64,000 nucleotides of DNA from the human T2T-CHM13v2.0 reference genome, Homo sapiens (GCA_009914755.4 CP086569.2:14560001-14624000), one strand, 5' to 3'. Shown: positions 49,598-50,965, counted from the first letter of the stretch. Made by a program: numbers and translations. The notes: a model not told the origin generated them from the sequence alone.

Positions 49598-49864
49598 GTA
49601 AGCCCCAGGGCCCCTGCATCCTTACTCCTTCTACCCTCCCCTTCATGCCGCGCTTGCCCCTTCATTATTCGCGTCCCTGTGAAGACATCCCCTAAAGCCA
49701 AGCCGAGTGATTATCCCCGGGAAAGCTGCCTTGGGGAGGTGGGGATGCGAAACACCCTAGATGCTGGGTAATGCGGTGGGGAAATCGATGATTTAAGAAC
49801 AAAGCAAATAAACCGGCGTTTATGTACTGCCGCTCGGAGGGTTCGTGTTAAAATTTCTTAGTGT

Positions 49865-50143
49865 GCCGAGGCGGGCGGATCACGAGGTCAGGAGATGAAG
49901 ACCATCCCGGCTAAAACGGTGAAACCCCGTCTCTACTAAAAATACAAAAAATTAGCCGGGCGTAGTGGCGGGCGCCTGTAGTCCCAGCTACTTGGGAGGC
50001 TGAGGCAGGAGAATGGCGTGAACCCGGGAGGCGGAGCTTGCAGTGAGCCGAAATCCCGCCACTGCACTCCAGCCTGGGCGACAGAGCGAGTCTCCGTCTC
50101 AAAAAAAAAAAAAAAAAAAAAAAAAAAAAAAAAAAAAAAAAAA
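49865..50143 (+). mobile_element. 5'-truncated AluY (Ya5-like) with about 43-nt pure poly(A), in TMSB4Y intron 1; TSD aaaatttcttagtgt
   Basis: Starts at Alu position ~40 (gccgaggcgggcggatcacgaggtc). Has GCGTAGTGGCGGGCGCC, CTACTTGGGAGG and GAAATCCCGCCACTG. Direct repeats at 49849-49864 and ~50140-50154. Confidence 0.9.
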
Positions 50144-50965
50144 TTTCTTAGTGTTTGCTCTCAAAGGTATTGTGCGTTGTCTTGGAGGCTGAGATGTGGG
50201 AACAGACAGATCCTTTGTTCTGAGGCTCACTCATCTCCCGAGCCCCGAGCCGTCTCCCAGCCTCAGACGGCTCTGCGGGCTGCATCTGTGCAGCCTGGCA
50301 GCGGCGGCGCTGCGCTGTGACATTTTCACAGCCCTTCTTGCAGAGGCATGTGTGCTAGGGATGCCGAAATGCCGAGAGCGCCGGCAGGACTAGCTTCCGG
50401 GCCGCGCTTTGTGTGCTGGGCTGCAGTGTGGCGCGGGCGAGGAAGCTGGTAGGGCGGTTGTCGCAAGCTCCAGCTGCAGCCTCCGCCTACGTGAGAAGAC
50501 TAGAAAGCGGGCGCAGGACCAGGCCTGCGTTGTTTGCAGAGAGGCCGTGGCTACAAAATGGAAGTGCTTTTGCGACCTGGGCTCCATTTTAGGAATTCTT
50601 GCCCGATTTTAACCACTTGAACGCGGAAGTGGCTTTCCTATTCTCTTCCAAGCCAGCCTTTAATTTTAAACGCTGTAATTAACAGTTCACAGGGGTCAAA
50701 TTCCTTTATTCCGGAACATTCCACTTTGAGAGGGATCTGTCCTCTTTGGTCCCCTGCGTTTTCAAATATTTGAGGAAAGGTGTCGCCTCTTTTTCTGTGG
50801 AAAGAGGAAGCTCATGAGCGCGAAACAGCAGGGGACGGAGGGCGAGAAGGGCTTTCTCAGGTTGCGGGTCGGAGGGCAGAAGCACAGTTCCCAGTACAGA
50901 GACCCGGACAGGTGGCTGTTTCTCACGCTCACTTTGGATTGCTCCCTACGGCTTCCTCCGCAGCC

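What the first reader, a model, noticed from the sequence alone, without database searches (positions are those of the whole stretch)
49849..50154. Young AluYa5-like insertion with ~43-nt pure poly(A) inside the CpG-island first intron of TMSB4Y
This is a 5'-truncated Alu starting at consensus position ~40. It is almost identical to the AluY consensus and carries the bases I associate with Ya5: GCGTAGTGGC, CTACTTGGGAGG and a cgcgcc>cccgcc change (GATCGCGCCACTG>GAAATCCCGCCACTG). Most CpGs are intact. It ends in a 43-nt uninterrupted A-tract and is flanked by a perfect ~15-bp TSD, aaaatttcttagtgt. These are marks of a very recent insertion, probably human-specific and possibly polymorphic among Y haplogroups. 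It sits about 270 bp downstream of exon 1, inside the promoter CpG island. Long pure A-tracts are also mutable.
Basis: partly seen in the sequence, partly recalled or inferred. Interest (0 to 1): 0.5.

Follow-up and report, generated by a model that had tools for sequence, protein, structure and literature searches.

The report
Truncated AluYa5 at TMSB4Y's 5′ end
This is an ordinary, already-catalogued AluYa5 retrotransposon copy in the CpG island at the start of the human Y-linked thymosin β4 gene; it is present in both human Y assemblies I could compare, only its poly(A) tail length differs between them, and it lies just upstream of the annotated gene start rather than in an annotated intron.

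Summary
A 236-bp Alu body (window 49865-50100, Alu consensus positions 46-281) is followed by 43 uninterrupted A's and flanked by an exact 15-bp target-site duplication at a perfect L1-endonuclease site (TT|AAAA). All five AluYa5 diagnostic bases are present.

The "very recent, possibly polymorphic" reading is not supported:
- The element has four private substitutions (1.7%), none seen in 24 other Ya5-type copies.
- It is present with an identical body in GRCh38 and in the window, which is a different human Y (3 differences in 20.9 kb).

On the X gametolog of two monkeys the target sequence occurs once (an empty site), inside TMSB4X intron 1. However, a published promoter analysis places an Ensembl protein-coding TMSB4Y start within 70 bp downstream of the 3′ TSD. 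Relative to the annotated Y transcript, the Alu is therefore promoter-proximal, not intronic.

The copy lacks the A box and has a damaged B box, so it cannot act as a source element. Human specificity is likely on subfamily grounds, but ape Y sequence was unreachable. This is a known kind of feature, present in the reference genome, and of low interest.

The parts
49850..49864 (+). 5' copy of the target-site duplication, AAAATTTCTTAGTGT. It is preceded by TT, giving the L1-endonuclease site TT|AAAA (bottom strand 5'-TTTT|AA-3').
   Evidence: Exact 15/15 match to 50140-50154, with no extension on either side. Present once on the X gametolog.
49865..50100 (+). AluYa5-lineage body, 5'-truncated, covering consensus positions 46-281. 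It comprises the distal part of the left monomer (B box mutated GATCGAGAC to GATGAAGAC at 49897-49898), the A-rich linker and the complete right monomer. Private substitutions are at 49897, 49898, 50052 and 50091.
   Evidence: Ungapped alignment with 4 mismatches to Ya5, 7 to the typed AluY string and 18 to AluSx. Five of five Ya5 diagnostic bases. Rfam Metazoa_SRP E = 7e-15 (60.6 bits, below the gathering score of 70) at 49955-50102.
50101..50143 (+). Uninterrupted poly(A) tail of 43 A in this Y. The last 4 A's overlap the TSD. GRCh38 has 57 A here.
50140..50154 (+). 3' copy of the target-site duplication. It contains dbSNP rs556848823 (G/A) at window 50151.
   Evidence: SNP context aaatttctta[g/a]tgtttgctct from PMC7583315 Table S3 maps uniquely to 50141-50161.
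49534..49597 (+). Context: segment homologous to TMSB4X exon 1 (5'UTR). TATAAAG lies about 25 bp upstream and a GTAAGC donor starts at 49598. Whether the Y gene uses this exon is not shown.
   Evidence: Alignment to a gibbon TMSB4X retrocopy scores 49 against 28 +/- 3.7 for shuffles. Alignment to monkey X genomic exon 1 and donor.
50152..50221 (+). Context: interval that must contain the start of an Ensembl protein-coding TMSB4Y transcript. My unverified memory of GRCh38 chrY:13,703,567 converts to window 50197.
   Evidence: PMC7583315 analysed only the 70 bp in front of annotated protein-coding transcript starts and lists a SNP at window 50151. Coordinate conversion.
50966..51065 (+). Context: first coding exon of TMSB4Y, from the ATG at 50966. 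The spliced product equals NP_004193.1 / O14604.

Best explanation
This is a fixed AluYa5-lineage retrotransposon copy on the human Y.

How it arose:
- It was inserted by L1-mediated target-primed reverse transcription.
- L1 endonuclease nicked the bottom strand at 5'-TTTT|AA-3'.
- The freed T's primed on the Alu RNA's poly(A).
- Reverse transcription stopped, or the cDNA was joined, at Alu position 46.
- A staggered second nick 15 bp away produced the TSD.

Where it landed:
- The target lay in the CpG island at the 5' end of TMSB4Y.
- That position is inside intron 1 of the ancestral X-type gene.
- It is about 45-55 bp upstream of the start of the currently annotated Y transcript.

What it does now:
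- The copy never had an A box and its B-box core is mutated, so it cannot be transcribed by Pol III as a source element.
- It is in the sense orientation and has no AATAAA or ATTAAA, so it is expected to be a tolerated passenger.
- Its only active behaviour is that the pure A-tail acts as a fast-slipping mononucleotide repeat (43 vs 57 A in two Ys).

Shown: the anatomy, the subfamily, the empty site on X, presence in two human Ys, and the tail-length difference.

Inferred: the TPRT steps, Pol III inactivity, neutrality, insertion on the human lineage after the chimpanzee split, and fixation.
For: - TPRT hallmarks: exact 15-bp TSD, TT|AAAA site, 3' poly(A). These match benchmarks for de novo and polymorphic Alus: site TTTT/AA, repeats 14 +/- 3 bp, 14% 5'-truncated with 20 of 322 starting at positions 26-50.
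- Ya5 assignment: five of five diagnostic bases. The typed consensus was validated by four full-length contaminant copies with no base mismatch to it; three align over all 281 positions without gaps and one has a single indel.
- Empty site: the monkey X gametolog is collinear on both sides and carries AAAATTTCTTAGTGT once.
- Same insertion in two Ys: identical body in GRCh38 chrY:13,703,221-13,703,456 and in the window, which differ by 1 SNP, 1 GT unit and 14 A's over 20.9 kb.
- No A box, because the copy starts at position 46. B box reads GATGAAGAC.
- No polyadenylation hexamer in the element and no TTTT after the tail.
- Annotated TSS within 70 bp downstream of the TSD.
- Low base rate of Y MEI polymorphism: 46 in 140 assemblies, and 18 non-reference Alus in 43 Ys.
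Against: - Ape Y chromosomes could not be examined, so 'inserted after the human-chimpanzee split' rests on what is generally known of the Ya5 subfamily, not on a test here.
- Only two human Ys were compared. They are closely related (1 SNP in 20.9 kb, roughly 30 kyr, 95% interval 0.7-175 kyr), so absence in deep-rooting haplogroups is not excluded.
- The 14-nt tail difference could partly be homopolymer error in one of the assemblies.
- Four private changes are somewhat more than expected even for 6.5 Myr if all arose after insertion (P = 0.11-0.15 for three or more events). Either some came from a rare source copy or the element is unusually old for a Ya5.
- Neutrality with respect to TMSB4Y expression is assumed, not shown.
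Confidence: 0.85

Rival explanations
1. One reading: a very recent insertion (within the last few hundred thousand years) that is polymorphic for presence or absence among Y haplogroups.
For: - The tail is long and pure, 43-57 A, against a mean of about 29 (range 13-62) in validated polymorphic Alus.
- The TSD is perfect.
- 19 of 20 CpGs are intact.
- Ya5 is the subfamily with the most polymorphic insertions.
Against: - It is present with an identical body in two different Y assemblies.
- It has four private substitutions that none of 24 other Ya5-type copies share.
- P(three or more events) < 0.0001 at 0.25 Myr and about 0.001 at 1 Myr if the changes are post-insertional.
- The B-box change is unlikely to have been inherited from a functioning source.
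- CpG retention is not a clock here, because the element sits in a CpG island.
- Only 46 polymorphic young non-LTR insertions were found in 140 Ys.
Confidence: 0.04
2. An early Ya5-lineage insertion that predates the human-chimpanzee split and is shared with other African apes.
For: - Body divergence of 1.7% with 2-3 non-CpG-type events is high for a Ya5. Under a purely post-insertional model the best-fitting ages are several Myr or more.
- A perfect 15-bp TSD is uninformative at this time-scale.
Against: - All five Ya5 diagnostic bases are present.
- From general knowledge of Alu biology (not tested here), the Ya5 expansion is almost entirely human-specific, with only a handful of copies in chimpanzee.
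- A 43-57-nt uninterrupted tail is unusual for an element that old.
- The other Ya5 in the window has a similar total divergence (1.8%), so about 1.7% may simply be normal for Y-linked Ya5 copies.
Confidence: 0.04
3. The insertion is functionally consequential. It split the ancestral TATA promoter and exon 1 from the rest of the gene, and it either promotes or supplies AT-rich promoter sequence for the downstream start now annotated about 45 bp past the TSD. Tail length could then modulate TMSB4Y expression between haplogroups.
For: - The annotated TSS lies within 70 bp of the 3' TSD.
- The SNP_TATA_Z-tester analysis in PMC7583315 scored the tail/TSD junction as the TBP-binding region of that promoter (K_D 14 nM).
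- The ancestral exon-2 acceptor is destroyed in Y.
- An AluYa5 near RPL17 raised reporter and endogenous expression in another study.
Against: - The AT-rich junction would sit at about -46 to -57, not at the usual TATA distance.
- The TBP-site prediction is purely in silico.
- The downstream block is X-Y conserved (92% at 50160-50219), so a start site there could be ancestral and independent of the Alu.
- The acceptor loss is an independent point mutation, with a new AG 2 nt before the ATG.
- No expression or CAGE data were available here.
Confidence: 0.07

Closest known systems
AluYa5 subfamily (human-lineage young Alu SINEs, L1-mobilised)
   Same: 7SL-derived dimeric body, AluY backbone, all five Ya5 diagnostic substitutions (89 C, 96 A, 145 A, 174 T, 237 C), 3' poly(A), a 15-bp TSD and a TTTT/AA target site.
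   Different: It is 5'-truncated at position 46, which occurs in roughly 10-14% of Alus, so Ya5 and Ya8 cannot be distinguished. It carries four private substitutions, including a B-box lesion. It is among the more diverged Ya5 copies.
YAP (DYS287), the classic polymorphic Alu insertion on the human Y
   Same: A young Alu insertion on the male-specific Y with a long A-tail. Such elements are candidate haplogroup markers.
   Different: YAP is absent from most Y lineages, including the reference. This element is present in both Y assemblies examined, and no presence/absence polymorphism was found. (The comparison with YAP is from general knowledge, not tested here.)
The second AluYa5 in the same window (28700-28980)
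   Same: Same subfamily (five of five diagnostic bases), same strand, similar total divergence (1.8% against 1.7%), clear TSD.
   Different: That copy is full-length and intergenic. All five of its changes are at CpG sites, and its tail is short and interrupted (A14 C A8 C A6). The TMSB4Y copy has lost only 1 of 20 CpGs and has a pure 43-57-nt tail, which is consistent with lying in an unmethylated CpG island. The contrast is not statistically significant (Fisher p = 0.17-0.20).
Promoter-proximal AluYa5 insertions with regulatory effect (e.g. the RPL17 pMEI, PMC8567694)
   Same: An AluYa5 copy close to the start of a ubiquitously expressed gene.
   Different: No functional data exist here, and this copy lacks most of the left monomer and its Pol III promoter.

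Membership tests
Alu SINE (7SL-derived, L1-mobilised) | Sequence homology to the dimeric Alu consensus and 7SL/SRP RNA | tested here: met
   Ungapped alignment to consensus positions 46-281 at 98.3%. Rfam Metazoa_SRP E = 7e-15 (60.6 bits, below the gathering score of 70) on the right monomer.
Alu SINE (7SL-derived, L1-mobilised) | TPRT hallmarks: 3' poly(A), flanking TSD of about 7-22 bp, L1-endonuclease target TTTT/AA | tested here: met
   39-43 A; exact 15-bp TSD; TT|AAAA at the 5' junction. Benchmarks. Single-copy target on the X gametolog.
AluYa5 subfamily | Five diagnostic substitutions relative to AluY: T89C, C96A, G145A, C174T, G237C (Konkel et al. 2015) | tested here: met
   All five are in the Ya5 state at window 49908, 49915, 49964, 49993 and 50056.
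AluYa5 subfamily | Absence of the extra AluYa8 diagnostic changes | not testable with these tools
   Konkel et al. report that 5'-truncated copies lack the three positions that separate Ya8 from Ya5. This copy lacks positions 1-45, and I hold no verified Ya8 consensus.
AluYa5 subfamily | Restricted to the human lineage (orthologous site empty in chimpanzee and gorilla) | not testable with these tools
   Ape TMSB4Y proteins were not found among 19 guessed sequences. Flank scans of the DNA collections were empty. No per-locus human-specific table was held.
Polymorphic mobile-element insertion (presence/absence) | Both filled and empty alleles exist among humans | tested here: inconclusive
   The site is filled in both available Y assemblies. 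These are closely related (1 SNP in 20.9 kb). Population tables were not held.
Retrotransposition-competent Alu source element | Intact left monomer with Pol III A and B boxes | tested here: not met
   The copy starts at position 46, so there is no A box. The B-box core TCGA is changed to TGAA. Criteria from Konkel et al..
Retrotransposition-competent Alu source element | Pure A-tail longer than 20 nt and a TTTT terminator within about 15 bp of the tail | tested here: not met
   The tail criterion is met (43 pure A's), but there is no TTTT in the 150 bp after the tail.
   True for the X-type structure: the homologous X site is 283 bp into TMSB4X intron 1, and the exon-1 homologue, TATA box and GT donor are retained in Y. 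However, an Ensembl protein-coding TMSB4Y transcript starts downstream of the element, and the ancestral exon-2 acceptor is lost.
CpG island | At least 200 bp, G+C above 50%, CpG observed/expected above 0.6 | tested here: met
   971 bp, 57% G+C, o/e 0.75 with the insert removed; 1261 bp, 55.5%, o/e 0.81 with it. A TMSB4Y promoter CpG island is also named in PMC3089472.

The most novel reading that the evidence does not exclude
A human-lineage AluYa5 insertion separated the ancestral TATA promoter and exon 1 of TMSB4Y from the coding exons. It now forms the immediate upstream flank (about -54 to -330) of the transcript start the Y gene actually uses. Its hypervariable A-tail (43-57 nt) sits at about -54 and would be a haplogroup-variable promoter element affecting TMSB4Y expression.
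Probability: 0.07. Interest if true: 0.45.

Novelty: already known. Interest (0 to 1): 0.15.

Why it matters
It matters little.

- The element is part of the GRCh38 reference (chrY:13,703,221-13,703,513 including the tail) and belongs to the best-studied young human repeat family.
- Annotation: the Alu lies just upstream of the annotated TMSB4Y start, inside the promoter CpG island, not in an annotated intron.
- Genotyping: dbSNP rs556848823, proposed in one paper as a TBP-site promoter variant, lies inside the Alu's 3′ target-site duplication next to a long homopolymer, which is a context prone to alignment and genotyping artefacts.
- Marker potential: the 43-vs-57 A-tail is a potentially fast-evolving Y-linked length marker. 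A genomic A-run of this size is also a classic internal-priming site for oligo(dT) cDNA protocols (general knowledge).

Tried and rejected
I got around this through the listing of cluster members, which gave P0121 and GRCh38 locus L001.
- Mechanical ORFs next to or across the insertion (50196-50393 and 50018-50320) were not on record in the assembly index, so no further human or ape copies could be reached that way.
- I guessed 19 candidate ape TMSB4Y proteins (X/Y intermediates and CpG-driven single steps). None is a primate Y protein; the only guess in the collection is a sloth β4-like protein.
- Scanning metagenome and microbial-genome collections for the 5′ flank plus TSD gave no hits.
- Per-locus tables of human-specific or polymorphic MEIs (PMC6191304, PMC13252187, the Hallast preprint) are not held, or cover only non-reference insertions.
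- Roy-Engel 2002 (PMC186649) is not held.
- P0020, which I expected to be gibbon TMSB4X, turned out to be an intronless retrocopy. I reused it as an mRNA fossil to map the exons.
- AluS or plain AluY assignment was considered and rejected (18 and 7 mismatches against 4).
- Post-insertion 5′ deletion was rejected because the intact TSD abuts position 46.
- mir-1268 and mir-3135 gene annotations were rejected: the Rfam hits are below gathering score and are Alu-derived families.
- An exceptional X-Y conservation peak at the insertion site was rejected: identity there is 78-92% against a regional mean of 84.5%.
- CpG protection by the island, relative to the second Ya5, is suggestive but not significant (p = 0.17-0.20).

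Full report
**What is there.**

Window 49850-50154 contains, on the + strand:
- a 15-bp direct repeat AAAATTTCTTAGTGT at 49850-49864;
- a 236-bp Alu body at 49865-50100;
- an uninterrupted run of 43 A's at 50101-50143;
- the second copy of the same 15-mer at 50140-50154, whose first four A's overlap the run.

The repeat finder reports this 15-mer pair as the only direct-repeat family in 49600-50400. The A-run is the only one of 15 nt or more in the 64-kb window. The body aligns without gaps to Alu consensus positions 46-281, so the truncation point is 46, not ~40. The Rfam covariance model for metazoan SRP RNA matches the right monomer at E = 7e-15 (60.6 bits, below the family's gathering score of 70), confirming 7SL ancestry. 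The mir-1268 and mir-3135 hits at the same place are below their gathering scores and only reflect Alu-derived miRNA families.

**Subfamily.**

Konkel et al. 2015 list the five AluYa5 diagnostic substitutions as T>C at 89, C>A at 96, G>A at 145, C>T at 174 and G>C at 237 (PMC4607524). All five are in the Ya5 state here. Identity is 98.3% to Ya5, 96.2% to AluY and 91.2% to AluSx.

It was validated afterwards: four full-length Ya5 copies on contaminant contigs from public assemblies show no base mismatch to it, three of them over all 281 positions without gaps and one with a single indel.

Because positions 1-45 are missing, Ya5 and Ya8 cannot be separated.

**Insertion mechanism.**

The 5' TSD is preceded by TT, so the pre-insertion top strand read GTGTT|AAAATTTCTTAGTGT|TTGC. 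The bottom-strand nick site is therefore 5'-TTTT|AA-3', the L1-endonuclease consensus recovered in de novo Alu insertions (PMC3415434).

The other features fall inside the published ranges for validated young Alu insertions:
- TSD length of 15 bp against 14 +/- 3;
- a perfect TSD, as in 93% of cases;
- 5' truncation, as in 14% of cases (20 of 322 starting at positions 26-50), or about 10% genome-wide;
- a homopolymeric tail.

The intact TSD abuts position 46 directly, so the truncation happened at integration and not by later deletion.

**Independent proof that it is an insertion.**

The canonical β4 protein led to genomic TMSB4X loci of two catarrhine monkeys, L030 and L031. The Y window is collinear with them on both sides of the element. 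Window ...49864 aligns to X ...3174, and window 50138... aligns to X 3158... The overlap on X is about 16 bp, as a TSD predicts.

On X, AAAATTTCTTAGTGT occurs once and runs straight into TTGCC... The reconstructed pre-insertion Y aligns across the junction without a gap.

**Which genome, and is the insertion variable?**

The spliced coding sequence in the window equals NP_004193.1 / UniProt O14604, human TMSB4Y. The exact-protein look-up returned GRCh38 chrY:13,694,336-13,715,259 as L001.

The window is not GRCh38. Over 20.9 kb the two differ at exactly three places:
- one GT unit in a (GT)n repeat;
- one SNP, at window 53159;
- the Alu tail, 43 A in the window against 57 A in GRCh38.

The Alu body, all four private substitutions and both TSD copies are identical. 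So the insertion is shared by two different human Ys. One SNP in 20.9 kb corresponds to roughly 30 kyr of separation, with a 95% interval of 0.7-175 kyr at published Y mutation rates taken from general knowledge.

The caveat is that homopolymers of this length are error-prone in any assembly.

**Age.**

The element differs from the Ya5 consensus at four positions:
- 78-79, CG>GA, inside the B box;
- 233, G>A;
- 272, A>T.

As a sample of other copies, I scanned the microbial-genome and metagenome collections for the Ya5-specific 3' region with ambiguity codes at 233 and 272. All 24 contaminant copies recovered carry the consensus bases, giving a 95% upper bound of 12% for the variants. Clean full-length copies in that sample have 0-3 mismatches per 281 nt. 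The sample is biased towards young copies, because the remaining 54 nt had to match exactly.

If the private changes arose after insertion, three or more events in 236 bp has these probabilities:
- below 0.002 for an age of 1 Myr or less;
- about 0.02 at 3 Myr;
- 0.11-0.15 at 6.5 Myr.

"Almost identical to consensus, therefore very recent" therefore does not hold.

The retained CpGs (19 of 20) are not a reliable clock either, because the element sits in a CpG island. The other Ya5 in the window (28700-28980, intergenic) has similar total divergence, but all five of its changes are at CpG sites. That contrast fits hypomethylation of the TMSB4Y copy but is not significant (p = 0.17-0.20).

The twelve older Alus in the window are 72-91% identical to consensus, keep 0-7 CpGs and have pure A-runs of 12 or fewer. 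This copy is clearly young relative to the background, just not demonstrably "very recent".

**Polymorphism and human specificity.**

I could not reach ape Y sequence:
- 19 guessed ape TMSB4Y proteins are not in the collection as primate Y proteins;
- flank scans were empty;
- ORFs beside the element are not indexed;
- no per-locus table of human-specific insertions was held.

From general knowledge of Alu biology, the Ya5 expansion is almost entirely human-specific, so human-lineage origin is likely (my estimate about 0.93), but it is untested here.

For presence/absence polymorphism the base rate is low:
- 18 non-reference Alus in 43 Y assemblies (Hallast preprint);

The relevant supplementary tables are not held.

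**Position relative to the gene.**

A gibbon TMSB4X retrocopy (L002) served as a fossil of the spliced mRNA. On the Y window it maps to:
- an exon-1-like segment at 49534-49594 (score 49 against 28 +/- 3.7 for shuffles), followed by a GTAAGC donor at 49598 and preceded by TATAAAG;
- exon 2 at 50953-51065;
- exon 3 from 51857.

On monkey X the homologous insertion point lies 283 bp into intron 1.

Two findings complicate "first intron of TMSB4Y".

First, the ancestral exon-2 acceptor (X: CCCTGCAG|C) reads CCCTACGG in Y. An X GCAACC to Y GCAGCC change creates a new AG two bases before the ATG.

Second, Ponomarenko et al. 2020 analysed only the 70 bp in front of annotated Ensembl protein-coding transcript starts (PMC7583315). 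For TMSB4Y they list rs556848823 in the context aaatttctta[g/a]tgtttgctct. That 21-mer is unique in the window at 50141-50161, which is the 3' TSD running into the flank.

An annotated start must therefore lie at window 50152-50221. My unverified memory of the gene span, GRCh38 chrY:13,703,567-13,706,024, converts to window 50197.

Relative to that transcript, the A-tail ends at about -54 and the Alu body spans about -97 to -332. The element is promoter-proximal inside the CpG island (971 bp, 57% G+C, o/e 0.75 without the insert), rather than in an annotated intron.

**Likely consequences.**

- The copy has no A box and a mutated B-box core (TCGA to TGAA), so it cannot be a Pol III-transcribed source element. 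This is an inference from the criteria summarised.
- It is in the sense orientation, contains no AATAAA or ATTAAA, and has no TTTT after the tail.
- X-Y conservation around the site is unremarkable (78-92% against a mean of 84.5%).
- The simplest reading is a tolerated passenger whose tail slips.
- A regulatory role cannot be excluded. The possibilities are displacement of the ancestral promoter, an AT-rich junction upstream of the used start, or tail-length effects. All are speculative. The only published hint is an in-silico TBP-affinity score.

**Verdict.**

- This is an ordinary member of a well-known family and is already present in the reference genome, so interest is low.

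Noticed in passing
window 28700-29010 (+): A second AluYa5, full-length, with five of five diagnostic bases and TSD AAAAAACACTCTT. Its tail is A14 C A8 C A6. All five of its differences from consensus are at CpG sites, in contrast to the TMSB4Y copy.
   Followed up: partly
window 50945-50965 vs L030 3975-3998: The ancestral exon-2 splice acceptor of the thymosin β4 gene (X: CCCTGCAG|CTTTTCC) is destroyed in the human Y copy (CCCTACGG). 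An X GCAACC to Y GCAGCC change creates a new AG 2 nt before the ATG. This may explain why the annotated Y transcript differs in its 5' structure from TMSB4X.
   Followed up: partly
window 50151 (GRCh38 chrY:13,703,521): dbSNP rs556848823, proposed in PMC7583315 as a TBP-site promoter variant of TMSB4Y, lies inside the Alu's 3' target-site duplication, 8 nt from a 43-57-nt homopolymer. A duplicated 15-mer next to a homopolymer is a context prone to mapping and genotyping artefacts.
   Followed up: partly
window ~45725-45765 and 53159: These are the only other differences from GRCh38 in 20.9 kb: one extra GT unit in a (GT)n microsatellite, and a G/A SNP (A in the window) immediately next to the T-run of an antisense AluS at 53170-53449.
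   Followed up: no
L002 3001-3222 (gibbon WKKJ03000027.1): The protein annotated 'thymosin beta-4 [Hylobates moloch]' (73 aa) is encoded by an intronless, poly(A)-tailed TMSB4X retrocopy inside a sulfotransferase gene. Its N-terminal extension is translated 5'UTR. It is probably a processed pseudogene called as a gene.
   Followed up: partly
L003 (Mycobacterium sp. 1100029.7 contig_39, 1222 bp) and L004 (Leadbetterella sp. DM7 NODE_249, 257 bp, cov 0.81): Two bacterial genome assemblies contain contigs carrying consensus human AluYa5 sequence. L003 has a perfect full-length copy ending in 77 A's at the contig end. This is almost certainly human DNA contamination. A further 22 metagenome contigs show the same (L005-L026).
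   Followed up: partly
window 49953-50004 (+) and 50021-50080 (-): The Rfam families mir-1268 (73 bits, gathering 83) and mir-3135 (30 bits) match inside the Alu. These miRNA families are evidently Alu-derived and will hit any young Alu.
   Followed up: no
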